A stretch of 64,000 bases of DNA, from contig OZ244873.1 in the NCBI GenBank assembly GCA_965221265.1, forward strand, positions 74,013 to 138,012, read 5' to 3'. Below the pieces are notes generated by a model. The model searched no databases and was not told where the DNA came from. It saw nothing but the letters and a program-made list of their open reading frames with translations. Positions 2,040 to 45,663 of the stretch are shown here, one piece after another; the stretch's first letter is position 1; the number at the start of each line of letters is the position of its first letter. Origin of the DNA: Longimicrobiales bacterium. GTDB taxonomy: Bacteria > Gemmatimonadota > Gemmatimonadetes > Longimicrobiales > Gaopeijiaceae. The translations under genes and the position numbers were made by a program.

Positions 2040-3526
2040 TGCTCGTTCTCGACCTCGCACTCAAGTCGCTCCGCAACCGTGCCTTCAGCACCTCGCTCAC
2101 CGTGGGCTCCATCGCCCTCAGCGTCGCGCTCCTGATTGGCGTCGAGAACGTGCGCGAGGGCATGCGCGAGAGCTTCTCCAACACCATCAGCCAGACCGAC
2201 CTCATCGTGGGCACCAAAGGCGGCACGATTCAGCTGCTGCTGTATTCGGTCTTCGGCATGGGGGCGTCGACGGAAAACGTTTCGTGGGAGGCGTACAGGC
2301 AGTGGGCGGAGCACCCCGCGGTCGCGTGGACCATTCCGTACAGCCTGGGGGACAGCCACAGGGGATTCCGGGTCATCGGCACCAACGAGGACTTCTTTCG
2401 CCACTACCGCTACCGCGGAGGTCAGGAGATCGCGCTGGCGGAGGGACGGGCGAACGAGGAACTGTTCGACGTGACGCTGGGCGCGGACGTGGCGGTGGAG
2501 CTGGACTACGCGCTCGGCGACGAGATCTCGGTGACGCACGGGCTCGGCGAGGTGGGCTTCGTGCAGCACGACCACATGCCCTTCACGGTGGTCGGCGTGC
2601 TCGCCAAGACGTTCACCCCCGTGGACCGCGCCATCTACGTGACCCTGGAGGGCATGGAGGCCATCCACTGGGAGGACGGCGCGCCACCCGCGTCGGGCGA
2701 GACCCACGACCACGACCATGAGGCGGCGGCCGCGGACGACGACCACGCCCACGAAGCGGACGACGACGACGACCACGACCACGAGGCGGACGACGACGAC
2801 GCCCACGACCACGAAGCGGACGACGACGACGCCCACGACCATGAGGCGGACGACGACGACGCCCACGAAGTGGACGACGACCACGCTCACGACGACGAGG
2901 CGGAGGCGGCCGCGGCCCCCGCGGACGACGACCACGCCCACCAAGCGGATCTCTCCATCGAAGACGTCGAGGTTACCCAGGTGACCTCCTTCTTCGTGGG
3001 GACCACCAACCGGCGGGACGTGCTCCGGCTGCAGCGCGAAGTCAACGACTTCGAGGACGAGCCCATGATGGCGGTCATCCCCGGGGTGGCCCTCAACGAG
3101 ATGTGGCAGGGGATCGGCTACGCCGAGACCGGGCTCCGACTGGTCACCGTCTTCGTCGTGATGGTGGGGCTGCTGGGCATGCTCGTGTCGCTCTACACCT
3201 CGCTCGACGAACGCCGCCGCGAGATGGCGATCCTGCGCGCCGTCGGAGCCGGACCCGGACGCATCGTCGGGCTGTTGGTGCTCGAGTCGCTGTGCCTGGC
3301 CGGAGCGGGCGCCATCGCGGGATTGGGCTTGGTGTACGCGCTACTCTCGATCGCGCAGCCCATCGTCGAGGCCCAGGTGGGGCTCTTCATCCCCATCCGG
3401 GCCCCCGGATCCATCGAGCTCCTCTTCCTGGGCGCCGTGGTGACGGCCGGCTTCCTGATGGGCTTCGTGCCCGCCCTCAAGGCCTATCGCACGGCGCTGC
3501 ACGACGGGCTGGCGGTGCGGGTGTAG
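2039..3526 (+). CDS. ABC transporter permease, FtsX/MacB-like, with a His/Asp-rich insertion in the extracytoplasmic loop
   Basis: ATG overlaps the ATPase stop (TGATG). It has an N-terminal TM helix, a large periplasmic domain and C-terminal FtsX-type TM helices (LGMLVSLYTSLDERRREMAILRAVGA). Confidence 0.85.
   Translation: MLVLDLALKSLRNRAFSTSLTVGSIALSVALLIGVENVREGMRESFSNTISQTDLIVGTKGGTIQLLLYSVFGMGASTENVSWEAYRQWAEHPAVAWTIPYSLGDSHRGFRVIGTNEDFFRHYRYRGGQEIALAEGRANEELFDVTLGADVAVELDYALGDEISVTHGLGEVGFVQHDHMPFTVVGVLAKTFTPVDRAIYVTLEGMEAIHWEDGAPPASGETHDHDHEAAAADDDHAHEADDDDDHDHEADDDDAHDHEADDDDAHDHEADDDDAHEVDDDHAHDDEAEAAAAPADDDHAHQADLSIEDVEVTQVTSFFVGTTNRRDVLRLQREVNDFEDEPMMAVIPGVALNEMWQGIGYAETGLRLVTVFVVMVGLLGMLVSLYTSLDERRREMAILRAVGAGPGRIVGLLVLESLCLAGAGAIAGLGLVYALLSIAQPIVEAQVGLFIPIRAPGSIELLFLGAVVTAGFLMGFVPALKAYRTALHDGLAVRV
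2704..2950 (+). repeat. 30-bp in-frame tandem repeat (about 5 copies) encoding (H-D-H-E-A-D-D-D-D-A)n inside the permease gene
   Basis: Repeated unit gacgacgacgacgcccacgaccacgaagcggac. Translation: HDHDHEAAAADDDHAHEADDDDDHDHEADDDDAHDHEADDDDAHDHEADDDDAHEVDDDHAHDDEAEA. Confidence 0.85.
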
Positions 3527-3554
3527 GGGGAGGGTCGTTCGGCGGCCGCCGTCC

Positions 3555-4451
3555 TCAGCGCCCCGCCAGCCAGCGGTAGACCGCGCCCACATTGAGGGGG
3601 AACCACGCCTCGTACTGGCCCCAGTGGGCGTAGTCGTCGAGCCGCACGCCCGCCATGGCCTCCTCCTCCGACATCCCTTCGTCGAGCGCCGCCTGGACGG
3701 CGTCCCGCAGATCGCCGTAGTAGGCCAGCTGGCGCTCGATGGTGGCCCGGTCGCCCACGTCTCCGTGCCCGAAGACCACGGTCTCGAAGGGAATCTCCAT
3801 GAGCCGGTCGAGCGCCACGTAGAACTCGTCGAAGTGCCAACCCGGCAGATCCTGGTAGCCGACCCGGTCGTTGCTGACGAAATCGACCGCGAAGGCGACG
3901 CGCTCCTCGGGGAGGAAGGCCACCAGCAGGTTGTCGGTGTGGCTTCGTCCGAGGTACCGCAGCTCGATCGCGCGCCCGCCGAACCGGAGCGTCATCTGGT
4001 CGGAGAAGGTCAGGTCCGGGGGCGGAAGGTCCGGGTCGGCCCGCTCAAGGAGGATGGGCAGCGCGTTCTCCTGAGCGATGATCGGAACGTCGCCGCCGAA
4101 TTCGGCCCACAGCGCGGGCGCTCCGGTGGCGTGGTCGGCGTCGCTATGGCTGTAGACGATGGCCGCGAGGGGTTGGTTGGGCGCGGCACCGCGAATGGCG
4201 GCCCCTAGCCCGGCCGCCGCCTCCATCGAAATGGGGTCGAAGGCCACCACGCCGTCGTCGGTGTCCACGAAGAAGGCGTTGTGCGTGCCCGCGTTGTACC
4301 AGAAGACGCCGTCGGCGACCTGGCGGGTGGCGGCGTCCACCTCGGGAGCCTGCTCCGCCGTGTCGGCGCAGGCGCCCAAGGTCAGGGCGAGGGCGGTCGC
4401 GACCGCGAGCCCGGGCAGCGAGGTCGGGGGGGATGGGGTGGGTCGGGTCAT
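3555..4451 (-). CDS. MBL-fold metallo-hydrolase (metallo-beta-lactamase superfamily), secreted/lipoprotein
   Basis: HSDADH (HxHxDH) motif. Start chosen at MTRPTP with an AAGGAGGA RBS 7 nt upstream. The signal peptide LALTLGACAD looks like a lipobox. Confidence 0.8.
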   Translation of the reverse strand: MTRPTPSPPTSLPGLAVATALALTLGACADTAEQAPEVDAATRQVADGVFWYNAGTHNAFFVDTDDGVVAFDPISMEAAAGLGAAIRGAAPNQPLAAIVYSHSDADHATGAPALWAEFGGDVPIIAQENALPILLERADPDLPPPDLTFSDQMTLRFGGRAIELRYLGRSHTDNLLVAFLPEERVAFAVDFVSNDRVGYQDLPGWHFDEFYVALDRLMEIPFETVVFGHGDVGDRATIERQLAYYGDLRDAVQAALDEGMSEEEAMAGVRLDDYAHWGQYEAWFPLNVGAVYRWLAGR

Positions 4452-4545
4452 GCGGTCGTCCTCCTTCGGGGGGGCGGGAGGGGGCGGGTGCGGGATGGGG
4501 GTTCCAACCAACGCGACGCCCGCCGAGCTCTCGTCACTCGTGCGT

Positions 4546-4589
4546 GGGATGCCCGGCAATATTCCGGGGTGGGCGCGGCCGGTGCAACC
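4546..4589. repeat. 44-bp repeated motif, copy 1 (GGGATGCCCGGCAATATTCCGGGGTGGGCGCGGCCGGTGCAACC) containing a CCCGG-N7-CCGGG hairpin
   Basis: Near-identical (42/44) copy at 6914..6957. Internal inverted repeat CCCGGcaatattCCGGG. Lies in the divergent intergenic region between the MBL gene and NHL paralog A. Confidence 0.7.
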
Positions 4590-4611
4590 GTGAATCGGTG
4601 CGGCGCTCAAG

Positions 4612-5666
4612 TGGTCGCAATTGGACTTCTGTTGGCGGGTCTGGTCGTGGCGTGTGCGGGTGCGGAAACGGCCGGCGACATTGCTCTGGTGCCATTCGCT
4701 GAGACCACCGTACCGTTGAGCGAAGACTCCGCTATTCGCCTAGTGGACGAGGGGACCGTCTGCACGACGGAGTCGTATGAGTTCCGCGTTCACTGCACGG
4801 ACGCGAGTGGCTCCCAAGTCTCGTCCTTCGGTCGCCAAGGCGAGGGACCGGGGGAGTTTCGGACGGGCGGCACCCTCGTGCGCGGACCTGACGAGACAAT
4901 CGGTGTCGTCGACATGGATCGGATGTCCGTGTTCGGCCGCGCGGGCACGCTCTTGTCGGAAGTACGTCTTCCACCAGGCTTCGTGAACGGCTCCGCAACG
5001 TTTTCGTCGACGCTGACCGGTGGATGGATGGACTTCATCCAAGGCGGGATGTCCTTCCGTCATGCGGAACTGGACGTGGCATCGGGGGAGGCCGTGTGGG
5101 ACAGGGTCTACCCCCGGCGATATGAGACCGACGCGGAATGCGAGGAGTTGGGAGATTGGCGAGGACTTATTGGAGGGCGATTCTCTCCGGCGCGAGGCGT
5201 GGTTTTTTCGCTATGCCGAGGGCAGCTGTTGTTCTTCGCCAACCGCGACACCCCAACCGGTACGCTTGTCCGTGCCCCGGCGTATGTCCCCGAGCTCCCG
5301 AACGAGGAGGAGGTGCGGGCCTACTTGGAGGAAGCGGGCCCGTTCGCGATGGAGGACTGGTATCGGCGCCAACCCAAGGGGTACTTGCGCGGCGGTCAAC
5401 TGGCGTTCGATGATGGGAGCAGGCTGTGGGCGCTCACGGACCGCGACCCGGGCGATGGCTTCTCCTACTTGGATGTGTACGAGGATTCGGCATTCCGAGG
5501 TACGATCCGCGTGCGTCACCACGCGCGGGGGATCGACCTGCTTGGTTCGACGCTCGTGGTACTCGTCGACCGCCCGGTCGGGCCCCGCGACGCCGACGGC
5601 TTCCCGGACCGTGGAGTGGACTGGTACGACATCGGCGAACTCGGTTTCGGGGTGGACGGACTCTGA
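4612..5666 (+). CDS. NHL-repeat / 6-bladed beta-propeller lipoprotein, paralog A
   Basis: Lipoprotein signal (LLAGLVVACAG). NHL-like motifs FGRQGEGPGEF...IGVVD. Start uncertain (GTG 4591 or 4612). The long ORF 4281..5666 is an upstream read-through artefact. Confidence 0.7.
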
Positions 5667-5688
5667 CACCCGTTCGCCAAGTGGTCCG

Positions 5689-6852
5689 GTGTCGGTGGCG
5701 GGGACAGCTGCGGGCGGCACCCGCCCGACCGCCTCATCGCTGGCGCCACTCCTCTTGGTTGCGATGGCCTGCACAACCCCGGACGATGCGACGGAGCCAA
5801 GGGAAATGGCGATTCCCTTGGCTCCGGTCGCGTCGTCCGAAGCACCCCTGAGCCGCAACACGCGCATCGCCCTCCCGACCGAGGAGACCGCATGCGTTAT
5901 TGACGACTACGAGGTGCGGGTCCATTGCATCCACCGCGACCAACGGACCTCCGCGATCTTCGGGCGACGGGGCGAGGGCCCCGGTGAGTTTCCCGAGTCG
6001 GGCAGCAGGAGGATCGTCCGGGGCCGCAACGCCACCATCGGTGTCGTCACGTCGAGCCGCTTGTCGGTATTCGACGTGTCCGGAGAATTGTTGTCCGACA
6101 TTGGATTGCCGCGGCGCCTAATGCCATCGGCACCGTTCGATTCCATTCTGTCGGGATACTATCTTCAGTTGGATTATCGGCCACCGTACAAGAGGGAATA
6201 TCGGGCAGTCGACTTGGATATCCGAAGTGGGGCGATTCTGTGGGAACGGGTCTACCCGCGCGACATGGCTGCCGGGGCCCGCTGTCCGGGCCCACCCCTG
6301 CCGGAGGGCGTCGCGCCTCCGCGAGGCTTGGCCACTGCAAGGTTCCTCTCCATCGGCGCATTCTTCATTCTGTGCCGTGGGCAATTGCTCTTTCTGGAGG
6401 ATCGAAGAGATGAGGGCGGGACGCTCATCCAAGCCCCCCTGTACGCCGACGTATTCCCCAGCCCGGAGGACGTGGAGCGATACGTGGAACTCTGCGATGC
6501 TCCGGCTCGCCGGCTCCTCGAAATACCCTGCGAGCCCGAGGAATACGCCCGCACGCCCGAGAACTACAGCGCCCAAACCTGGGTGGACGACCAAGACCGC
6601 CTTTGGGCACTCACCAATCGGGATCGCGAGTCGTTCTCTCATCTAGACGTCTTCATCGGCCTGGAGTTTGCGGGATCGGTTCGAGTGCGCCACCGCGCCG
6701 TGGGATTCGACGTGCTCGGTACGACGCTCGTCATCTTGGTGGACCACCCAGTGGGAACAAATGATCCCGACGGAATCCCGGACCGAGGCATCGACTGGTA
6801 CGACATCGGCGAATTGGAGTTGGGGGTGGGCGACCCAGGCCCTCATCGATAG
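5689..6852 (+). CDS. NHL-repeat lipoprotein, paralog B (about 45% identical to A)
   Basis: Same motif pattern (FGRRGEGPGEF, CRGQLLF, DWYDIGEL). Putative GTG start at 5689. The first ~220 aa of the listed ORF 5020.. are out-of-frame read-through of paralog A. Confidence 0.6.
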   Translation: MSVAGTAAGGTRPTASSLAPLLLVAMACTTPDDATEPREMAIPLAPVASSEAPLSRNTRIALPTEETACVIDDYEVRVHCIHRDQRTSAIFGRRGEGPGEFPESGSRRIVRGRNATIGVVTSSRLSVFDVSGELLSDIGLPRRLMPSAPFDSILSGYYLQLDYRPPYKREYRAVDLDIRSGAILWERVYPRDMAAGARCPGPPLPEGVAPPRGLATARFLSIGAFFILCRGQLLFLEDRRDEGGTLIQAPLYADVFPSPEDVERYVELCDAPARRLLEIPCEPEEYARTPENYSAQTWVDDQDRLWALTNRDRESFSHLDVFIGLEFAGSVRVRHRAVGFDVLGTTLVILVDHPVGTNDPDGIPDRGIDWYDIGELELGVGDPGPHR

Positions 6853-6913
6853 AGCGCGCCCAACGACGACACCCGAGGATGCCTTGGGCGTGGACGACCT
6901 CGCCTCGGAACAG

Positions 6914-6957
6914 GGGATGCCCGGCAATATTCCGGGGTGGGCGCGGCTGGTGCAACT
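6914..6957. repeat. 44-bp repeated motif, copy 2
   Basis: GGGATGCCCGGCAATATTCCGGGGTGGGCGCGGCTGGTGCAACT. Lies 60 bp downstream of paralog B and ~300 bp before the IS256 left end. Confidence 0.7.
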
Positions 6958-7253
6958 GAGGGTCGGTGGAATCCTCGCGGGTCCGTCGCGTGATCAAGGC
7001 GGCGCCGGGTCCCGGCGTGGCCGCTAGGTGGACTTGGAGACAGCGTGGCGGCGGCGGCTGTTGACAGGCTCGCCTTGGGTTCCTACGGTGACACGGATCC
7101 TCCGGTTGACAGGGTCTTCCGGTGAGACGAGCATCCACATCACGCGGGAGGCAACATGTCCGAGGCAACCCGCAGGTCCCTTCCCCTGAAGGCGTTCGCC
7201 TGCGCGACCCTATTCGCGATAGTTCGAGGTGGGACCAAGATCCCACCCGGCTT

Positions 7254-7261
7254 CTGATTGG
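7254..7261. repeat. 8-bp target-site duplication CTGATTGG (left)
   Basis: The identical octamer directly abuts both IS ends (7254-7261 and 8716-8723). 8 bp is the characteristic TSD length of IS256-family elements. Confidence 0.75.
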
Positions 7262-8715
7262 AGGCTGTCCCAACCGTAGTTGGAGGTTGCGGTGGCTCCC
7301 GTGAGTTTCATGCTACGGATGCGGCCTCGTTCTCGGCAACCGGGGCCGTGAGTTCGTCCAAGTGCGCCTTGAGGATCCACAGATCCCGGTAGCCCATGAT
7401 CCTGCGGTAGCTCCGCTCCGCGTCCATGAACGAGGCGGCCGCCCAACGGACCACCATCGACCCGTCCCGCCAGCGCGTGACGCGCCGCATCCGCTGGCGC
7501 ATGCCGGAGTGGGCGTTGTCGATCAGGTTCGTCGTGCCCAGGCAGCGGCGCAGCGGAGCCGTGAGCCCGAGCTCGCTTACGGTGAAGAGTTCGTCCAGCC
7601 CCTCGCGCAGGCTCCGCGCGGCCGCCGGATGCTCCCTGTCGACCCATGACGCGAATTGCTCGATCCTCGCCCTCCCATCCGTTCCGTCCAGCTTCCAAGC
7701 CGCCCGCAGCACCGCGCGCGCCTGGTCGTGCAGCGTCTTCGGCAAGTGCCCCAGCACATTGCGCATCTTGTGGTTCCGGCAGCGCTGCACCTTGCAGGCC
7801 TTCCCGAAGACCTGGTCGACCGCCTTACGCAGCGCCCTCGAGCCGTCGATGACGAACAACCGCCCCCGCCTCGGGTCCAAGCCGCGCTCGACGAGCTCCT
7901 CGAGCAGGGCCAGCGCGACCGCCGCGTTCTCGCTCGCACCCTCCCGGATGCCGAGAATCCGCTTGTTCCCCTCCGCGTCCACGCCAAGCGCCACCAGCAC
8001 GTGGTGGCCCGCGAACTGGACGCCGTCGAGGTACACGACCACAACGTCCCGGTCGTCCAGCCGCCGCTCGGCCAGCTCCCTCAACCGCTCGCCCGCCGCC
8101 TCGGCCGCCCGCCGGCTCACCGACGACCTGCTCACCCCCGCCGTCTCCGCCATCTCCCCGATCGCCTTCCCGTACGCCCGCGTGCTCACCCCGCGCATCA
8201 GCAGCTCCAGCATCCGGTCCCCGAGCCCCTCCGGACGCCGCAGCATCTCATAGGCCGGGATCGCGACCTCGCCCCCGCCCTTGCGCCTCAGCCGCGGCTT
8301 CTCGACCCGGACGGCTCTGTCGGACAGGTACACACGGCCCTTCTGCCGGCCGTGGTAGGCCACCCCGCCGCCGCGCCGCCTGCCCGGCTGCTTCGGCCCG
8401 GCCACGTCCGACGCGCCAATCTCCAGCACCGCCTCGATCGCCGCCCGCCCGATGACGTCGATGATCGTGTCCAGCGCGTCTCCCGCCCGCACGAACACAT
8501 CCGCCAGCGGCAGCAGATGCCGCCCTTCCCTCGCCAGCAGCTCCCGGGCCGCCCGCTTGTCGGCCCCGCCCCTTCCTTCGTACCTTTTCCTCATCGTGGT
8601 GGTCTCCCGTTGGGGTTGATTGCTCGCCTGATTCTAACCGGAATCAGGCCCCCGGGAGCCACCACGACCTCTTTTCCCCTTCGGAGAACCTCCAACTATT
8701 CCTGGGACACCCTCT
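7262..8715 (-). mobile_element. IS256-family insertion sequence, 1454 bp, apparently intact
   Basis: Imperfect terminal inverted repeats AGGCTGTCCCAACCGTAGTTGGAGGTT (left) versus the reverse complement of the right end AGAGGGTGTCCCAGGAATAGTTGGAGGTT. Single full-length transposase ORF, flanked by the 8-bp TSD. Confidence 0.85.
7308..8594 (-). CDS. IS256-family (Mutator-type) transposase
   Basis: 428 aa. Characteristic IS256 transposase motifs (YLDGVQFAGHHVLVALGVDAEGNKRILG; CRNHKMRNVL; TTNLIDNAHSGMRQRMRRV). Confidence 0.9.
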   Translation of the reverse strand: MRKRYEGRGGADKRAARELLAREGRHLLPLADVFVRAGDALDTIIDVIGRAAIEAVLEIGASDVAGPKQPGRRRGGGVAYHGRQKGRVYLSDRAVRVEKPRLRRKGGGEVAIPAYEMLRRPEGLGDRMLELLMRGVSTRAYGKAIGEMAETAGVSRSSVSRRAAEAAGERLRELAERRLDDRDVVVVYLDGVQFAGHHVLVALGVDAEGNKRILGIREGASENAAVALALLEELVERGLDPRRGRLFVIDGSRALRKAVDQVFGKACKVQRCRNHKMRNVLGHLPKTLHDQARAVLRAAWKLDGTDGRARIEQFASWVDREHPAAARSLREGLDELFTVSELGLTAPLRRCLGTTNLIDNAHSGMRQRMRRVTRWRDGSMVVRWAAASFMDAERSYRRIMGYRDLWILKAHLDELTAPVAENEAASVA

Positions 8716-8723
8716 CTGATTGG
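8716..8723. repeat. 8-bp target-site duplication CTGATTGG (right)
   Basis: See left copy. Confidence 0.75.
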
Positions 8724-8730
8724 ATTGGTT

Positions 8731-10008
8731 GTGCGAGTCGTTCAGCCCTTCGCCATCTGTCTCTCCCTCTCCATCTTGTCGACAGGTGACGTACGGGCGC
8801 AGATCGGCCAACGCGTATACGCGTGTGAACTGGATCGACGCCCCATTGAGGGCCTGCTCCTAGCTCACCGATCCGCCATGACCGATGCGGAGGCGCCCGT
8901 GGTGTCGTCGGCCCGTTTTGCCCCTGACGGCACCATCGTCGCAGTGGATCAATCGGCCAAACGCGTTTTGATACTTGATTCAGATCTCGACATTGTACGT
9001 GATGTCGGTCGCGCTGGACCTGGGCCTGGCGAATACGACGATCCGGTCGCAGCCGTCATGGATGATCAGGGACGAATATTTGTGGCCGACGGCGCCGGCG
9101 GCGTAACCACCGTGATCGTCTACGATCCAGACGGTTCGTTTGTTAGGCAGGATCAGCTGCCGCTGTATTTGTCCCCGCGCGCGTTGGCCACAGATGGCCA
9201 GTTGGTCTACGTTGCGGGTCAAGCTCTGTTCTTCACCGATCCCCCTCCTGACAACCGACCCTTGCTCGCCGCGTATGATCCCACAACCGGCGAAACTCAA
9301 GTCATGCTTGAACAGGATCCTGATTGGTTTGGCGAGCCGCCAGTGTACCGAAACTCGTTTGTCAACCTCATTCCAAGAGTTGATGCGCTCGGCAATATAT
9401 GTGTGGGATTTGTGGAAGGATACGAGATATGGAAAATCACGGGACCAAATGAATATGACGTGATCCTGCGCGGTTGCGTACCCGAAGGAGCCCTTGCCGT
9501 TTATGAAGCCGATGACGATGACCTGCTAATGGGCCAAGGGTCATCCAGTTTCCCTCCAGGACTTGATCTGAACTTTCGGCCTCCCCGACCTTCATATCAA
9601 ATATTGTCCGATTTCGCCGTGCTCTCGGATGGGTACATTGTTACCCGATCCGTGCTCTATGTTGATGAAGCCGGTAAGCGGAGTATGGAGTTGTTTTCTG
9701 GAGAAGGCACTCTTGAGCGAGCGTGGTCGCTGGGTCCCGGACGGCTGCTGACCGGATGGGGTGTCATGGACGGCAACGATCCATCGCGCCAATTCTCTTG
9801 GAACGCGAACAACGGCACATCCGTACTTGGCCAGTTTCCGTTCATTGACGCCGAAGCGGAAGCAGATCCGGATGCTGCCCCCTCACGGGAACGTGGCGGA
9901 TCCGATGGCAGAGGTAGGGTGATTGGTCTTTGGATCTCGGTCTTGCTTGGAGCGTTGGTCATTCTCGTTGCCGCGGGGGGCGCCCTCCACCGGCGTCGGC
10001 GGCTGTGA
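8731..10008 (+). CDS. NHL-like 6-bladed beta-propeller protein with signal peptide and C-terminal TM anchor; lower-GC (~55%) gene
   Basis: GTG 8731 (or TTG 8725) gives the signal peptide MRVVQPFAICLSLSILSTGDVRA. NHL-like GPGPGEYDDPVAAVMDDQGRIFVAD. C-terminal LWISVLLGALVILVAAGGALHRRRRL. GC is clearly below neighbours. Starts 9-15 bp after the IS256 right end. Confidence 0.65.
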   Translation: MRVVQPFAICLSLSILSTGDVRAQIGQRVYACELDRRPIEGLLLAHRSAMTDAEAPVVSSARFAPDGTIVAVDQSAKRVLILDSDLDIVRDVGRAGPGPGEYDDPVAAVMDDQGRIFVADGAGGVTTVIVYDPDGSFVRQDQLPLYLSPRALATDGQLVYVAGQALFFTDPPPDNRPLLAAYDPTTGETQVMLEQDPDWFGEPPVYRNSFVNLIPRVDALGNICVGFVEGYEIWKITGPNEYDVILRGCVPEGALAVYEADDDDLLMGQGSSSFPPGLDLNFRPPRPSYQILSDFAVLSDGYIVTRSVLYVDEAGKRSMELFSGEGTLERAWSLGPGRLLTGWGVMDGNDPSRQFSWNANNGTSVLGQFPFIDAEAEADPDAAPSRERGGSDGRGRVIGLWISVLLGALVILVAAGGALHRRRRL

Positions 10009-10018
10009 GGAGAGACGG

Positions 10019-11101
10019 ATGGTGAAAGGGGCGACCCCGGCCGTAACCGGACTCGCCATGGCGGGTCTGGTCGTGGCGTGCGCGGATGCGGGAACGGGCG
10101 GCGACATTGCTCTGGTGCCATTCGCCGAGACCACCGTGCCGTTGAGCGAGGGCTCCGCTATTCGCTTGGTGGACGAGCGGACCGTCTGCACAACGGAGTC
10201 GTACGAGTTCCGCGTCCACTGCACGGACGCGCGAGGGTTTCGGATTTCGTCCTTCGGGCGCCAAGGCGAGGGACCGGGGGAGTTTCGTAGTGGCGGCACC
10301 CTCCTTCGCGGACCCGACGGAACAATCGGTGTCGTCGACAGAGATCGAATGTCCATGTTCAGCGTAGCGGGCGCGCTCCTGTCGGAAGTACTTTTACCGG
10401 CAAGGCTAATCAACGGCTCCGCAACGTTTTCGTCGACGCTGACCGGTGGGTGGATGGATCCCGCTCAGGACGGGATGACGTTCCGTCATGCGGAACTGGA
10501 TGTGGCATCGGGGGAGGCCGTGTGGGACAGGGTCTACTCCCGGCGATACGAAACCGACGCTGGGTGCGAGGAGCTGGGCGATTGGCGAGGACTCATTGGA
10601 GGGCGATTCTCCCCGGCGCGAGGCGTGGTTTTTTCGCTATGCCGAGGGCAGCTGTTGTTCTTCGACCATCGCGACACCCCAACCGGTACGCTTGTCCGTG
10701 CCCCGGCGTATGTCCCCGAGCTCCCGAACGAGGAGGAGGTGCGGGCCTACGTGGAGGAAGCGGGCCCGTTCGCGATGGAGGACTGGTATCGGCGCCAACC
10801 CAAGGGGTACTTGCGCGGCGGTCAACTGGCGTTCGATGATGGGAGCAGGCTGTGGGCGCTCACGGACCGCGACCCGGGCGATGGCTTCTCCTACTTGGAT
10901 GTATACGAGGATTCGGCATTCCGAGGTACGATCCGCGTGCGTCACCACGCGCGGGGGATCGACCTGCTCGATTCGACGCTCGTGGTACTCGTCGACCGCC
11001 CGGTCGGGCCCCGCGACGCCGACGGAATCCCGGACCGCGGCATCGACTGGTACGACATCGGCGAACTGGAGTTCGGGGCCTCGCGCATTCCGACTCCGTA
11101 G
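10019..11101 (+). CDS. NHL-repeat lipoprotein, paralog A' (near-identical to paralog A)
   Basis: ATG at 10019 with lipoprotein signal MVKGATPAVTGLAMAGLVVACAD. The 3' ~550 nt are ~98% identical to paralog A; the 5' ~400 nt are ~88% identical. Confidence 0.75.
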   Translation: MVKGATPAVTGLAMAGLVVACADAGTGGDIALVPFAETTVPLSEGSAIRLVDERTVCTTESYEFRVHCTDARGFRISSFGRQGEGPGEFRSGGTLLRGPDGTIGVVDRDRMSMFSVAGALLSEVLLPARLINGSATFSSTLTGGWMDPAQDGMTFRHAELDVASGEAVWDRVYSRRYETDAGCEELGDWRGLIGGRFSPARGVVFSLCRGQLLFFDHRDTPTGTLVRAPAYVPELPNEEEVRAYVEEAGPFAMEDWYRRQPKGYLRGGQLAFDDGSRLWALTDRDPGDGFSYLDVYEDSAFRGTIRVRHHARGIDLLDSTLVVLVDRPVGPRDADGIPDRGIDWYDIGELEFGASRIPTP

Positions 11102-11312
11102 TCGGCGGTGCGTTGGCCAGCCACGCCGGCTCGCGCGGCCCGAGGCGCGAAGTGCCCCCCCAGCATCACCCGATGACCGCTTTGCCCACTCCCCCCGGCC
11201 GGCTTAACCTGTTCCGCACAGCCCGACGGTCGCCCTCGCCCGAGGAACGACCGACACGGCGCAATACCAAGGCCCCGGCTTGCAGCCCCCGGGCCTCCAG
11301 CGACGACGTCAC

Positions 11313-12614
11313 ATGCGGAAATCCATGACCCCAACAGGATCGAGACCACCAGCGTCCGCCCGGCCCGCGCGCTTCGGATCGGGCGCGCGCCTCCACGCCT
11401 CGGCCGCCTGCCTCCTCCTCGCGGCGTGCGCGGCCCCCGACGCCGTCGTCTCCGAGCTCGCTCTGGAGGAAGTGGCCGTGGAGGCCGCCGCCGGGGCACG
11501 CTTCCCCTCCCTCGAGGGCCACGGCGAGGCGGTCGTGCTGAGTTGGCTCGAACCGCACATGGAGGACGGCGAGGAAGTGTGGGCGCTGAAGGGCGCCCGC
11601 TATGACGACGGCGCGCTGGACAAGCCCTTCGAGGTGACCCGCTCGGGCGGCGACGTCTCGTTTTTCGTGAACTGGGCCGACTTCGCGGTGGTGTGGCCCG
11701 TGGGCGAGGGACGGCTGGCCGCGCACTGGCTCCGGCGGGGCGGGTCGTCCACCTACGACTACGGGGTGCGGGTCGCCTTCTCGGACGACGGCGGGCACTC
11801 GTGGAGCGAACCGTGGACGCCGCACGAGGACGCCACGCCCTCCGAGCACGGGTTCGTGTCGATGTTCGGGCTGGGAGGCGGGAAAGCGGGGATGGTGTGG
11901 CTGGATGGCCGCCGCTTCTTCGAGGCGGATGGCTCGCGCGCGGCCCACCCCCGCATGACCCTGCGCTATCGGACGGCCGGCGCGGATGGGACCGTGACCG
12001 CCGAGGTCGAGCTCGACGACCGCATCTGCGACTGCTGCCAGACCGACGCGGCCATGACCTCCGGCGGGCCCATCGTGGTCTACCGCGACCGCACCGCGGA
12101 CGAGGTGCGCGACATCTCGGCGGGGCGTTTCGTGGACGGGAAGTGGACGGGCGGGGCCCCCGTGCACGACGACGGCTGGGTGATCCCGGGCTGCCCGGTG
12201 AACGGTCCTTCCGTGGCGGCCGTCGGCGATGCGGTGGTGGTGGCGTGGTTCACCGGCGCCAACGACACGCCCAAGGTGCGGGCCGCCTTCTCCCGGGACG
12301 CGGGCGCGACCTTCGGCCCGCCCGTCACGCTCGACCTGGGCAGCCCGGTGGGGCGGGTCGCGGCGGTGATGCCCGAACCCGAGACGGCGCTGGTGACGTG
12401 GCTGGAGGACGGACGCCTGCTCGTGCGCGCCGTCACATCCGACGGGCACCTCGGTCGGGTGCGCCAGGTGGCCACCTCGTCCGACGCGCGCGCCAGCGGC
12501 TTCCCGGCCATGATCGTGGACGCCGCGGACCGCGTGGTCTTCGCGCAAACGGTGGTCGACGAGGGCATCCGCGTGCTGCGGTCGCGGGAACCGTGGACGG
12601 CTTTGCGCGATTGA
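11313..12614 (+). CDS. BNR/Asp-box repeat (sialidase-like, exo-alpha-sialidase fold) lipoprotein
   Basis: Asp-box SDDGGHSW. Signal/lipobox ACLLLAACAAP. Start ATG 11313 (alternative 11325). Confidence 0.7.
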   Translation: MRKSMTPTGSRPPASARPARFGSGARLHASAACLLLAACAAPDAVVSELALEEVAVEAAAGARFPSLEGHGEAVVLSWLEPHMEDGEEVWALKGARYDDGALDKPFEVTRSGGDVSFFVNWADFAVVWPVGEGRLAAHWLRRGGSSTYDYGVRVAFSDDGGHSWSEPWTPHEDATPSEHGFVSMFGLGGGKAGMVWLDGRRFFEADGSRAAHPRMTLRYRTAGADGTVTAEVELDDRICDCCQTDAAMTSGGPIVVYRDRTADEVRDISAGRFVDGKWTGGAPVHDDGWVIPGCPVNGPSVAAVGDAVVVAWFTGANDTPKVRAAFSRDAGATFGPPVTLDLGSPVGRVAAVMPEPETALVTWLEDGRLLVRAVTSDGHLGRVRQVATSSDARASGFPAMIVDAADRVVFAQTVVDEGIRVLRSREPWTALRD

Positions 12615-12647
12615 TGACGCGCGACCCCGCAAGGGTGCGGGCCAGCA

Positions 12648-12762
12648 GTCCGTGGACGAATCCGCCCGAGCACCGAGAGCGGCGGTGCGCCGGGCTGGCA
12701 GGGCGCCTTGAAGGCTCGGGTGCAGCGTTACCGGAACGAAGGGCAACGCCGAGCTTAGCGAA
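12648..12762 (+). repeat. REP/MITE-like intergenic repeat, full copy (~115 bp)
   Basis: gtccgtggacgaatccgcccgagcaccgagagcggcggtgcgccgggctggcagggcgccttgaaggctcgggtgcagcg... The same element occurs in inverse orientation at 17878-17990, and partially at the other sites listed below. Confidence 0.7.
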
Positions 12763-12821
12763 CCAGCGCGGATGCCACACCGCTCGAGTGCCGGGGGGAG
12801 TTCGTCCGCGGGCGGCTCCAA

Positions 12822-12882
12822 GTCCGTGGACGACTCCGCCCGAACACCGAGAGCGGCGGTGCGCCGGGCTGGCAGGGCGCCT
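12822..12882 (+). repeat. REP-like repeat, partial second copy (5' half)
   Basis: gtccgtggacgactccgcccgaacaccgagagcggcggtgcgccgggctggcagggcgcct, about 93% identical to 12648-12708. Confidence 0.7.
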
Positions 12883-17799: not shown

Positions 17800-17877
17800 T
17801 CGGTCATGCCCGCGCCCACGCGGCGCCATGATCGCATCCACGCGCCCGGCATTCGAGCGGCTTGGCGTCCGCACTGG

Positions 17878-17990
17878 GCCGCTTCGCTCCGCGTTGCCTC
17901 TCGTCCCGGTGGCACCGCACCCGGGCCTTCAAGGCGCCTTGCCAGCCCGGCAGCGCCGCTCTCGGTGCTCGGGCGGATTCAGCCACGGCC
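17878..17990 (-). repeat. REP/MITE-like repeat, full copy in inverse orientation
   Basis: ccgcttcgctccgcgttgcctctcgtcccggtggcaccgcacccgggccttcaaggcgccttgccagcccggcagcgccgctctcggtgctcgggcggattcagccacggcc is the reverse complement of the 12648-12762 element. Confidence 0.7.
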
Positions 17991-18086
17991 TCGATAACGG
18001 CCCGTGATCGCATCCTCGCGCCCGGCGACCTCCTCCCACCCCGCGTCCACGCGGCCCTCCATCGCTTCAAGCCGGTCACGCCGGGG

Positions 18087-43587: not shown

Positions 43588-43626
43588 CGCCGCTCTCGGT
43601 GCTCGGGCGGATTCGTCCACGGCCCG
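43588..43626 (-). repeat. REP-like repeat, partial inverse copy
   Basis: gccgctctcggtgctcgggcggattcgtccacggcc. Confidence 0.6.
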
Positions 43627-45663
43627 CTAGGTCACCGGCGCCTTGTGCGTCCCCCACTTCTCGAACCACTTGCGCAGGTAGAGCTGGGTGCGCATGAAGT
43701 TCGAGGGGCGGGAGCCGGTGCCGTGCCACTCCTCCTGGAAGCGGATCATGACGGTGGGCACGCCCACGTACCGCAGCGCCTGGTAGAACTCCTCGGTCTG
43801 GCCCATGGGCGTGCGCAGGTCCATCTCCCCGGTCAGGAGCATGGTCGGCGTGGTCACGTTGCCCACGTAGAAGATCGATGAGCGGTCGATCCACTCCGTC
43901 GGATCCTCCCAGAAGGGCTTCTCGAAGGTGCGCGTGTAGCTGATCGCGTCCGATGTGCCCATCGCCGACATCCAGTTGACGATGGGGCAGTTGGCCGACG
44001 CCGCCGTGAAGCGGTCGGTGTTGCCCACGATGTAGCTCGTCAGGATGCCACCCCCCGAGCAGCCGTAGACGAACAGGTTGTCCTCGTCCACGTAGCCGCG
44101 CGCCAGCATTTCGTCCACCCCGGCCATGAGGTCGGGGAAGTCGGCGCCCGGGTAGTCGTGGTTGATGGCGTTGGCGAACGCGGTGCCGTAGCCGGTGCTG
44201 CCGCGCGGGTTGGTGTAGAGCACCACGTAGTCGTTGGCGGCGTGCTCCTGGAAGGCGAAGTTGAAGCCGCCGTGGTACATGCTGTGCGGTCCGCCGTGGA
44301 TGACCAGCATCATGGGATAGCGGCGCGACGGGTCGAAGTCGGGAGGCTTGACGATCCACCCCTGGATGCGGAAGTCGTCCTCGGAGTCGTACCAGATCTC
44401 CTCGACCTCGCCCAGCCCGACGTGCTCCAGCACGTCCGCGTTCACCTCGGTGAGGCGGCGCACTTGGTTGGGGCGATCGAGGTCGAAGCTGTGAATGTCG
44501 CCCGGTTCGTGGGCGCTGGAGATCACCCCGACCCCCACCCCGTCGTCCGAAAACGATGACAGGCCGAAGAGGTGCTCCCCGGAGGTCAGCTGGGTCACCC
44601 CTCCCTCCACCGAAACGAAGTGGAGCTGCGCGTATCCGTCGCGGCGCACGTTGAAGTAGAGCCCACTTCCGTCGCGCGCCCAGGTCATGGGCCCGATCTG
44701 GCGGTCGTGGTCCCCCGAGATCACGCGCGAGCCCGACCCGTCCCGGTTCATCAGGTGGATCTTCTGGTTGCGGTAGGTGTCGCGGTGGGCGTCGATCCCG
44801 GTGTGGGCGATGAGCGAGCCGTCGGGCGACGGAACCGGGCCGCCGTCGGGGCCCCGCCTGTGGGTCAGCCGCCGGATGTCGCCGCTCGCGACGGAGACGG
44901 CGTAGATTTCCGACTCCTGCCAATGCTCCGGCCGGTCCCAGTCCTCCTCCCGGTACGAGGTGAAGTAGATCTCGTCGCCGTCCGGGCTCCACTGGATGCC
45001 GGAGTGGTTCCAGTCGCCGTCGGTCAACCGGCGGGGGGTGCCGCCCTCGGCCGGAACCACGAAGACGTGGGTCCAGCCGGTGTCGACGTATCCCTGGCGG
45101 TCGCGCTTGTAGCCCGCCCGCTCCACCACCTTGGGCTCGCGCGTCCACTCGGCGCCGTCGGGACGCCCGGGCAGCTGAACGCCCGCGAAGTCCGCCCGGT
45201 CGGGAACCCGGCTGGTGAACGCGATCCACTCTCCGTCGGGCGACCAGCGCGGCTCCGAAGGCCCATCCTCCAAGCGCGTGATCTGGCTCACGGCGCCCTC
45301 GTCGTCCATCCACCGCACGAAGAGCTGCGAGCCCTCGGGCTGACCCCGCGCGGTGAAGAGGATGCGGGTGCCGTCCGGCGACCAGCGCGCTCCGCCCCCC
45401 TCCGCGAGGTGTCGGGCGCGGGTGCCGTCGGCGTTCATGATCCAAAGCGACGACTCCCGCCGGTCGGCCCGCTTGTCGATCCAGCCGCGCGTGTAGACGA
45501 TGCGCGCTCCATCCGGCGAGATGCGCGGGTCGGACACGGTCTCCATGTCCAGGTAGTGGGTGAGCGAGAGCCGGTCCTGGGCGGCGGACGGCGCCGCGTG
45601 GGCCCCGAGAACGGCGAGCAGAAGGGCGACGAACGGGATGATGGCGCGGGGACGGGTCATCGG
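43627..45663 (-). CDS. S9-family serine peptidase (prolyl oligopeptidase/dipeptidyl-peptidase-like) with N-terminal beta-propeller
   Basis: Nucleophile elbow GCSGGG. Catalytic Asp/His region. Signal peptide MTRPRAIIPFVALLLAVLGAHA. Alternative start 45723. Confidence 0.85.
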   Translation of the reverse strand, partial: PMTRPRAIIPFVALLLAVLGAHAAPSAAQDRLSLTHYLDMETVSDPRISPDGARIVYTRGWIDKRADRRESSLWIMNADGTRARHLAEGGGARWSPDGTRILFTARGQPEGSQLFVRWMDDEGAVSQITRLEDGPSEPRWSPDGEWIAFTSRVPDRADFAGVQLPGRPDGAEWTREPKVVERAGYKRDRQGYVDTGWTHVFVVPAEGGTPRRLTDGDWNHSGIQWSPDGDEIYFTSYREEDWDRPEHWQESEIYAVSVASGDIRRLTHRRGPDGGPVPSPDGSLIAHTGIDAHRDTYRNQKIHLMNRDGSGSRVISGDHDRQIGPMTWARDGSGLYFNVRRDGYAQLHFVSVEGGVTQLTSGEHLFGLSSFSDDGVGVGVISSAHEPGDIHSFDLDRPNQVRRLTEVNADVLEHVGLGEVEEIWYDSEDDFRIQGWIVKPPDFDPSRRYPMMLVIHGGPHSMYHGGFNFAFQEHAANDYVVLYTNPRGSTGYGTAFANAINHDYPGADFPDLMAGVDEMLARGYVDEDNLFVYGCSGGGILTSYIVGNTDRFTAASANCPIVNWMSAMGTSDAISYTRTFEKPFWEDPTEWIDRSSIFYVGNVTTPTMLLTGEMDLRTPMGQTEEFYQALRYVGVPTVMIRFQEEWHGTGSRPSNFMRTQLYLRKWFEKWGTHKAPVT

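What the first reader, a model, noticed from the sequence alone, without database searches (positions are those of the whole stretch)
7254..8731. Recently inserted IS256-family element with intact 8-bp TSD, 9 bp upstream of a low-GC gene
The element (7262-8715) has a complete transposase, recognisable imperfect terminal inverted repeats and a perfect CTGATTGG duplication on both sides, so the insertion is recent and probably still active. Its right end lies only 9-15 bp before the start codon of gene 8731..10008. IS256 elements are known to create hybrid or outward promoters, so the expression of that gene is probably IS-driven or disrupted.
Basis: partly seen in the sequence, partly recalled or inferred. 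Interest (0 to 1): 0.55.

Follow-up and report, generated by a model that had tools for sequence, protein, structure and literature searches.

The report
Fresh IS256-family insertion before a gene
This is an ordinary, intact and recently moved jumping gene (an IS256-family insertion sequence) that landed 2 bases in front of a secreted-protein gene, facing the wrong way to switch that gene on, so it more probably cuts the gene off from its own promoter.

Summary
Three 100%-identical copies elsewhere fix the element at 7261-8714 (1454 bp). It has 28-nt terminal inverted repeats that both start GAGG, and an 8-bp target duplication TCTGATTG (7253-7260 and 8715-8722), not CTGATTGG. The 428-aa ORF (7308-8594, minus strand) is a full-length IS256-family transposase. 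The other copies and five 78-80% relatives each have 8-bp flanking repeats (four perfect, one 7/8), so the insertion is recent and the element active. No empty-site allele exists in public data.

Homologues show that the downstream gene really starts at TTG 8725, which is 10 nt from the IS end. The coding sequence is intact.

The "IS-driven" reading is not supported. The gene abuts the transposase-upstream end (IRL) and is divergent, whereas IS256-type fusion promoters use an outward -35 in IRR. No outward promoter-like site was found. The best promoter-like sites (7061-7089 and 7106-7134) lie upstream of the IS and are now 1462 bp further from the gene. Uncoupling, or read-through expression, is therefore more likely.

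Side note: the third catalytic residue is Asp (D359), not Glu, throughout this clade.

This is a new member of a known kind, of low interest.

The parts
7253..7260 (.). Left copy of the 8-bp target-site duplication, TCTGATTG
   Evidence: The register was fixed by comparison with three identical copies elsewhere.
7261..8714 (-). Complete IS256-family insertion sequence, 1454 bp, with the transposase on the minus strand
   Evidence: It is 100% identical over exactly this span to L001 5881-7334 and L002 1820-3273. Relatives at 78-80% nt identity align end to end.
7261..7288 (.). IRR, the terminal inverted repeat at the transposase-downstream end (GAGGCTGTCCCAACCGTAGTTGGAGGTT)
   Evidence: It is conserved in L004-L008 and L073.
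7308..8594 (-). Transposase gene, 428 aa. Predicted catalytic residues are D190, D250 and D359 (codon 7518-7520), plus the C272-x-x-H275 motif
   Evidence: Pfam PF00872 E 1.7e-36. NCBIfam NF033543 220.7 bits against a cut-off of 150. Alignment to ISCth4 TnpA, 6xg8. Residue positions.
8595..8714 (-). Transposase leader. It is strongly structured: the hairpin CCTGATTC/GAATCAGG lies at 8626-8647, and the GGGAG ribosome-binding site is paired with the subterminal GGTGGCTCCCG
   Evidence: MFE -54.3 kcal/mol, z = -3.56, and 0 of 200 shuffles fold as well.
8687..8714 (.). IRL, the terminal inverted repeat at the transposase-upstream end. This is the end that faces the downstream gene
8715..8722 (.). 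Right copy of the target-site duplication, TCTGATTG
8725..10008 (+). Intact gene ('gene C') for a secreted 6-bladed beta-propeller protein with a C-terminal hydrophobic anchor. It is 57.6% GC. The start is TTG 8725, with an alternative GTG at 8731
   Evidence: Pfam DUF5128, 29.5 bits. Homologue N-termini align to residue 1. GC.
7061..7134 (+). Two sigma-70-like sites pointing at gene C: TTGACA-N17-TACGGT (7061-7089) and TTGACA-N17-GAGCAT (7106-7134). They are the inferred native promoter(s), now separated from the gene by the IS
   Evidence: TTGACA-N16-18-TANNNT occurs only twice in 64 kb, with 0.05 expected. These are consensus matches only.

Best explanation
Window 7261-8714 is a single, complete and recently transposed copy of a previously unnamed IS256-family insertion sequence. 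It is 1454 bp long, with 28-nt TIRs, one 428-aa transposase gene and 8-bp target duplications.

By analogy with IS256 and ISCth4, it should move by copy-out/paste-in through a circular intermediate. That step is inferred.

It landed in the 5' leader of gene C, a secreted beta-propeller protein gene, 2 bp upstream of its TTG start codon. The coding sequence is left intact. Only the 10 nt immediately upstream of the start are preserved, because of the duplication.

The transposase is transcribed away from gene C, so the gene faces IRL. That end is not the one known to carry an outward -35.

The most likely consequence is that gene C is uncoupled from its own promoter region about 130-200 bp upstream, which is now a further 1462 bp away. 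Gene C would then be silenced, or expressed only by read-through across the IS, rather than switched on by the IS.

Shown: the element's identity, its exact ends, the TSD, recency and activity, the orientation, and the position relative to the start codon. Inferred: the transposition mechanism, the location of the native promoter, and the effect on expression.
For: Identity and ends.

Activity: 100%-identical copies at two other sites with complete flanks carry their own perfect 8-bp TSDs, and a third copy is cut by a contig end. Five 78-80%-identical relatives have conserved TIRs and 8-bp flanking repeats: four perfect (L006, L007, L008, L073) and one 7/8 (L004).

Start codon next to the IS: the signal-peptide N-termini of P0002, P0003, P0006 and P0007 align with residue 1. 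The ATG of the L073 orthologue does the same.

Orientation: the transposase ORF is on the minus strand and gene C on the plus strand.

No outward promoter: the standard scan found 0 sites in 6700-9100. A permissive scan found none in 8560-8724.

Promoter-like sites upstream of the IS.

Fusion promoters of IS256-type elements use an outward -35 in IRR: PMC9330008 section 4.2 and PMC7780238.

Ancestral state without an IS at the start codon: the orthologue in L073-L076 has an SD and an ATG with no IS256 end next to it. In L067 the intergenic gap is 61 bp.
Against: There are no expression data.

The sigma-70 consensus scan also fails to find the transposase's own promoter. Its sensitivity in this Gemmatimonadota-like host is therefore doubtful, and an unrecognised outward promoter in IRL cannot be excluded.

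No intrinsic terminator was found on the plus strand inside the IS, so read-through from the upstream sites could keep the gene expressed.

The gene is still fully intact. That fits continued use as well as it fits a very recent insertion.

No empty-site allele could be found to prove the pre-insertion state.
Confidence: 0.6

Rival explanations
1. The IS activates gene C, either through a hybrid promoter (-35 in the IS end, -10 in the flank) or through a complete outward promoter.
For: IS256 is documented to form hybrid promoters (llm, mecA; PMC9330008). The insertion is immediately upstream of an intact gene. A relative of the IS at 78% identity also lies upstream of the orthologous gene, in the same orientation, in L073.
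Against: The gene faces IRL, not IRR, where the outward -35 of these elements sits. No outward -35/-10 combination was found, even with loose criteria. Only 10 nt lie between the IS end and the start codon. A hybrid promoter would therefore start transcription at or inside the coding sequence and lose the signal peptide. In L073 an IS3-like element lies between the IS256-like element and the gene, about 1.6 kb away.
Confidence: 0.12
2. The insertion is close to neutral for expression. Gene C is still transcribed from its native upstream promoter(s) by read-through across the 1454-bp IS, antisense to the transposase gene. It is still translated from the preserved -10..-1 context.
For: There is no terminator-like site on the plus strand within the IS. 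The 10-nt duplication keeps the sequence immediately upstream of the start codon. The gene is intact.
Against: Read-through would add a 1.46-kb leader and would collide with transposase transcription. Such insertions usually have polar effects. Nothing here measures this.
Confidence: 0.25
3. The feature is not a genuine recent insertion. It is either an assembly chimera or an old, fixed and inactive relic.
For: The source is probably a metagenome-assembled contig. Only one copy lies in the window.
Against: A perfect TSD sits exactly at the ends defined independently by other copies. The ORF is intact and full length. The element has 0 mismatches to the copies elsewhere. An old relic would have diverged in both the TSD and the ORF.
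Confidence: 0.03

Closest known systems
IS256 (Staphylococcus/Enterococcus), the type element of the family
   Same: It has a single Mutator-type transposase ORF, imperfect TIRs, 8-bp target duplications and a size of about 1.3-1.5 kb. It is known to modulate neighbouring genes, both by fusion promoters and by reversible insertional inactivation (PMC9330008; PMC2816298 for ica phase variation).
   Different: The sequence relationship is distant, recognised through family profiles only. The host here is high-GC and Gemmatimonadota-like. The TSDs here are not AT-rich. The third catalytic residue is Asp, not Glu. No junction-type -35/-10 pair could be recognised in the ends.
ISCth4 (Clostridium thermocellum), the IS256-family element with solved transpososome structures (6xg8, 6xgw, 6xgx)
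   Same: The catalytic core aligns (E 4.7e-13). D190 and D250 match D175 and D241. C272/H275 match the C262/H265 motif of the insertion domain. It also makes 8-bp TSDs (PMC7780238).
   Different: ISCth4 E348 aligns with D359 here (TTNTIE against TTNLID). ISCth4 carries recognisable -35 and -10 halves in its R- and L-TIRs; this element does not.
IS931 (Burkholderia), the closest named IS found in annotated records
   Same: It is an IS256-like element. Its transposase is 48% identical over 90% of the length.
   Different: At under 50% identity it is a different IS. IS931 keeps the canonical Glu (TTNLIEN).
Unnamed relatives in Longimicrobiales and Gemmatimonadota MAGs and in sponge metagenome contigs (L003-L008, L073, L078)
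   Same: They are 78-87% identical and align end to end. They have the same TIRs, 8-bp flanking repeats and the Asp at the third catalytic position. There are four copies in one Longimicrobiales genome.
   Different: They are different isoforms, with 13-22% nucleotide divergence. None of them is at this site.

Membership tests
IS256 family of insertion sequences | Transposase matches the Mutator/IS256 transposase profiles above the curated thresholds, over its full length | tested here: met
   PF00872 scores 126.4 bits (cut-off 21) and covers profile positions 20-376 of 379. NF033543 transpos_IS256 scores 220.7 bits (cut-off 150).
IS256 family of insertion sequences | DDE catalytic triad (D, D, E) in an RNase H-like core | tested here: not met
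   D190 and D250 are present, but the position of ISCth4 E348 is Asp (D359), giving a D-D-D triad. The substitution is conservative and clade-wide. The element is evidently mobile. This is therefore a variant of the family rather than grounds for exclusion.
IS256 family of insertion sequences | C/DxxH motif in the alpha-helical insertion domain | tested here: met
   C272-R-N-H275 aligns with ISCth4 C262/H265 (PMC7780238).
IS256 family of insertion sequences | Imperfect terminal inverted repeats of about 20-40 bp | tested here: met
   The TIRs are 28 nt, 82% complementary, and conserved in relatives.
IS256 family of insertion sequences | 8-9 bp target-site duplication | tested here: met
   The duplication is 8 bp here, in 2 other identical copies and in 4 relatives, with one further relative at 7/8.
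IS256 family of insertion sequences | Length of about 1.2-1.5 kb with a single transposase ORF | tested here: met
   The element is 1454 bp with one 428-aa ORF.
IS256 family of insertion sequences | Copy-out/paste-in transposition through a circular intermediate | not testable with these tools
   This needs detection of circle junctions, by PCR or in read data.
IS-generated hybrid (fusion) promoter, as for IS256-llm and IS256-mecA | Outward-directed -35 hexamer in the IS end that abuts the gene (IRR), correctly spaced from a -10 in the flank | tested here: not met
   The gene abuts IRL. No -35/-10 pair was found in 8560-8724, even at 7/12 matches. Only 10 nt lie between the IS and the start codon.
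IS-generated hybrid (fusion) promoter, as for IS256-llm and IS256-mecA | Transcripts that initiate at the junction and raise expression of the gene | not testable with these tools
   There are no transcript data for this organism.

The most novel reading that the evidence does not exclude
This element belongs to an actively transposing subclade of the IS256 family, found in Gemmatimonadota, Longimicrobiales and a few other phyla. In this subclade the catalytic glutamate is replaced by aspartate (D190/D250/D359, a 'DDD' IS256). I found no description of this in the literature I searched. Separately, members of this subclade sit upstream of the same secreted beta-propeller gene in two different genomes (the window and L073). 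That could reflect IS-mediated on/off switching of a surface protein in host-associated Gemmatimonadota.
Probability: 0.35. Interest if true: 0.35.

Novelty: new member of a known kind. Interest (0 to 1): 0.17.

Why it matters
It matters very little beyond annotation.

It adds a well-delimited, demonstrably mobile IS256-family element from a poorly studied phylum. It corrects the start of the neighbouring gene: the database call begins 174 bp too late and drops the signal peptide. It also flags that this gene is probably uncoupled from its promoter in this genome.

The Asp-for-Glu change at the third catalytic position is a small but testable point about how much variation the IS256/Mutator active site tolerates.

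Tried and rejected
1. Exact-protein look-ups of gene C, both the 427-aa ORF and the database's 369-aa call P0001, returned nothing.

2. A scan of JGI metagenomes for the TSD plus right flank, which would hit both filled and empty alleles, gave 0 matches. A scan for the conserved IRR core gave only one 80%-related partial element, L078.

3. The GTDB species-representative scan with the transposase found no identical copy (best 87%). The source genome and its copy number therefore could not be examined.

4. An Rfam scan of 4000-11500 found nothing relevant. There are no tRNA genes in the window.

5. I considered that the IS split a longer gene C. In the reconstructed empty site the frame stays open back to a GTG at 7122, an extra 47 codons. 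I rejected this because all homologues start at the signal peptide that aligns with TTG 8725.

6. I considered the database start, GTG 8899, which has a GGAGG 5 nt upstream. I rejected it as the native start because residues 1-58 are conserved in homologues.

7. I considered a composite transposon carrying the low-GC gene. I rejected it because there is no second copy in the window.

8. I considered that the window IS and the L073 IS are one ancestral insertion. I rejected this because they have different TSDs, each perfect (TCTGATTG and CATCGAAC), and lie at different distances from the gene.

9. I looked for a circle-junction promoter (IRR -35 plus IRL -10). None appears at any spacer of 4-9 bp.
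Full report
**Observation**

A 428-aa ORF lies on the minus strand at 7308-8594. It covers the Pfam Mutator-transposase profile almost end to end (PF00872, E 1.7e-36, profile positions 20-376 of 379). It scores 220.7 bits on NCBIfam's IS256-family equivalog model, whose cut-off is 150.

Inverted repeats of 28 nt (82% complementary) lie at 7261-7288 and 8687-8714, with a second subterminal pair at 7283-7301 and 8653-8671. An exact direct repeat TCTGATTGGA lies at 7253-7262 and 8715-8724. The TIR core occurs only at these two places in the 64-kb window, with 0 expected. Exact 8-mer repeats at this spacing occur at 4 of 62,522 positions, and 3 of those are this repeat.

**Exact ends**

The 10-nt repeat leaves three possible registers. 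The exact transposase protein is encoded on two other metagenome contigs. Three copies there are 100% identical to the window over exactly 7261-8714; one of them is cut by a contig end.

Their flanks differ and carry their own 8-bp duplications: ACCACGAG in L001 and GTCGTCTC in L002. The base after ...CACCCTC is T, A or G in the three complete copies.

The element is therefore 7261-8714 (1454 bp), both ends read GAGG..., and the duplication is TCTGATTG.

**Relatives**

Relatives at 78-80% nucleotide identity align with the element from base 1 to base 1454. They come from Longimicrobiales MAGs (L004-L008, with four copies in one genome) and a sponge-metagenome scaffold (L073). They have the same TIRs and 8-bp flanking repeats: perfect in L006, L007, L008 and L073, 7/8 in L004, and unclear in L005.

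It also shows that the element is recent and mobile.

**Host and rarity**

The closest transposases are from Gemmatimonadota (87%) and Longimicrobiales (75-77%) MAGs. The exact protein is on only three contigs in a 15-billion-protein collection. The closest named IS found is IS931 of Burkholderia, at 48% amino-acid identity. This is a new IS of a known family.

**The neighbouring gene**

The ORF 8725-10008 (plus strand) is a 6-bladed beta-propeller protein (DUF5128) with a C-terminal hydrophobic anchor. It is 57.6% GC, against 70.1% for the window and 69.9% for the IS (tnp GC3 91.8%). The "low-GC gene" description is therefore correct, and the IS is compositionally at home.

The public gene call (P0001, 369 aa) starts at GTG 8899. 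However, homologues at 50-57% identity carry a signal peptide and a conserved segment that align with residues 1-58 of the long ORF. The ATG of the 62%-identical orthologue in L073 aligns with residue 1.

The real start is therefore TTG 8725, or the in-frame GTG 8731. That is 10 nt (or 16 nt) from the IS end. The coding sequence is intact.

In the reconstructed empty site the frame stays open to a GTG at 7122. No homologue has such an extension.

**Effect on expression**

The transposase is transcribed away from the gene, so the gene abuts IRL. In IS256-type copy-out/paste-in elements, the half-promoter that creates fusion promoters is an outward -35 in IRR; IRL carries an inward -10 (PMC9330008; PMC7780238).

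The standard scan finds no promoter-like site on either strand in 6700-9100. A permissive scan (at least 7 of 12 matches, TANNNT-type -10) finds none directed outward in 8560-8724, and no circle-junction promoter.

By contrast, two sites with perfect TTGACA -35 hexamers point at the gene from 7061-7089 and 7106-7134. TTGACA-N16-18-TANNNT occurs only twice in the whole window, with 0.05 expected. The other occurrence also lies in an intergenic gap upstream of a plus-strand ORF.

I infer that the native promoter region lies about 130-200 bp upstream of the start codon, and that the IS now separates it from the gene by 1462 bp. Because no plus-strand terminator is predicted inside the IS, read-through expression cannot be excluded.

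A caveat applies. The scan does not recognise the transposase's own promoter either, so a non-consensus outward promoter remains possible.

**Empty site**

No allele without the IS is available. The gene's 90% cluster has a single member on a single contig, and the exact scan for the TSD plus right flank in JGI metagenomes was empty.

The only indirect evidence comes from orthologues in L073-L076 and L067, which have no IS256 end at the start codon.

**Transposase details**

Alignment to ISCth4 TnpA (6xg8), together with the residues named in PMC7780238, assigns D190, D250 and C272/H275. It places Asp-359 (TTNLID) where ISCth4 has Glu-348 (TTNTIE).

All relatives in the fetched loci with at least 54% identity that cover the site intact have Asp. 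The Acidobacteriota relatives at about 40-54% identity, and IS931, have Glu.

Among 117 cluster representatives that cover the site, 25 have Asp and 89 have Glu, with Asp concentrated among the closest relatives.

The transposase leader (8595-8714, minus strand) folds unusually well (z = -3.56). The fold pairs the ribosome-binding site with the subterminal repeat. This is the kind of structure that limits translation of read-in transcripts; that role is inferred.

**Verdict**

This is an ordinary, well-delimited, recently transposed IS256-family element and a new member of a known kind. The family assignment and the recency are supported. The suggestion that the IS drives the downstream gene is not supported by the anatomy. 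Uncoupling from the native promoter is the more likely outcome, but it is untested.

Noticed in passing
window 7518-7520 (codon of D359 in the transposase 7308-8594, minus strand): The third catalytic residue is Asp instead of the canonical Glu of the IS256 family; it aligns with ISCth4 E348. The change is clade-wide. In the fetched loci, 14 copies have Asp and 43 have Glu. Among cluster representatives, 25 of 117 have Asp, mostly the closest relatives. IS931 has Glu. I found no description of this variant in the papers I searched.
   Followed up: partly
window 8725-8899; P0001 and P0004: Public gene calls for this protein family start too late. P0001 begins at GTG 8899, which lies behind a GGAGG, and so loses 58 residues including the signal peptide. 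P0004 (317 aa) is really a full-length gene at L073 7668-8954.
   Followed up: yes
L073 4592-8954 (sponge metagenome scaffold; the same arrangement is seen in L074 and L075): The 62%-identical orthologue of gene C is preceded by an IS3-family element. Further upstream lies a 78%-identical relative of this IS, in the same orientation as in the window, with its own perfect TSD (CATCGAAC). A fragment of a paralogue like genes B and D lies at 3257-3597. This is an independent IS landing upstream of the same gene in another genome.
   Followed up: partly
window 4633-5652 and 10059-11078: There is a tandem array of four beta-propeller lipoprotein genes: A at about 4633-5666, B ending at 6852, C at 8725-10008 and D at 10019-11101. 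A and D are 91% identical in DNA over 1020 bp, so a recent duplication brackets B, the IS and C. C is only remotely similar to the others (27-29% locally) and has the lowest GC.
   Followed up: partly
window 4546-4600 and 6914-6968: A 55-nt motif, 91% identical between its two copies, contains the near-palindrome CCGGCAATATTCCGG. One copy is just upstream of gene A. The other is in the gap between gene B and the IS, about 295 bp before the insertion site. It may be a shared regulatory element or a remnant of a duplicated 5' region.
   Followed up: partly
window 12647-12708, 12821-12882, 17845-17991 (minus strand), 43588-43628 (minus strand): A short dispersed intergenic repeat of about 60-150 nt (GTCCGTGGACGA.TCCGCCCGA.CACCGAGAGCGGCGGTGCGCCGGGCTGGCAGGGCGCC). 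Copies are 83-97% identical. It is unrelated to the IS ends.
   Followed up: no
L002 1-3273: Two identical copies of the IS lie head to head (IRL facing IRL), 403 bp apart, on one low-coverage metagenome contig.
   Followed up: no
L003 3001-4266: The closest relative (87%, Gemmatimonadetes MAG COS4_bin_2) has an in-frame stop in its transposase gene, so it is probably a decayed copy.
   Followed up: no
window 8595-8714 (minus strand): The transposase leader folds far better than shuffled controls (z = -3.56). The fold sequesters the GGGAG ribosome-binding site against the subterminal repeat GGTGGCTCCCG. The perfect 8-bp hairpin at 8626-8647 contains a TAGAAT hexamer.
   Followed up: partly
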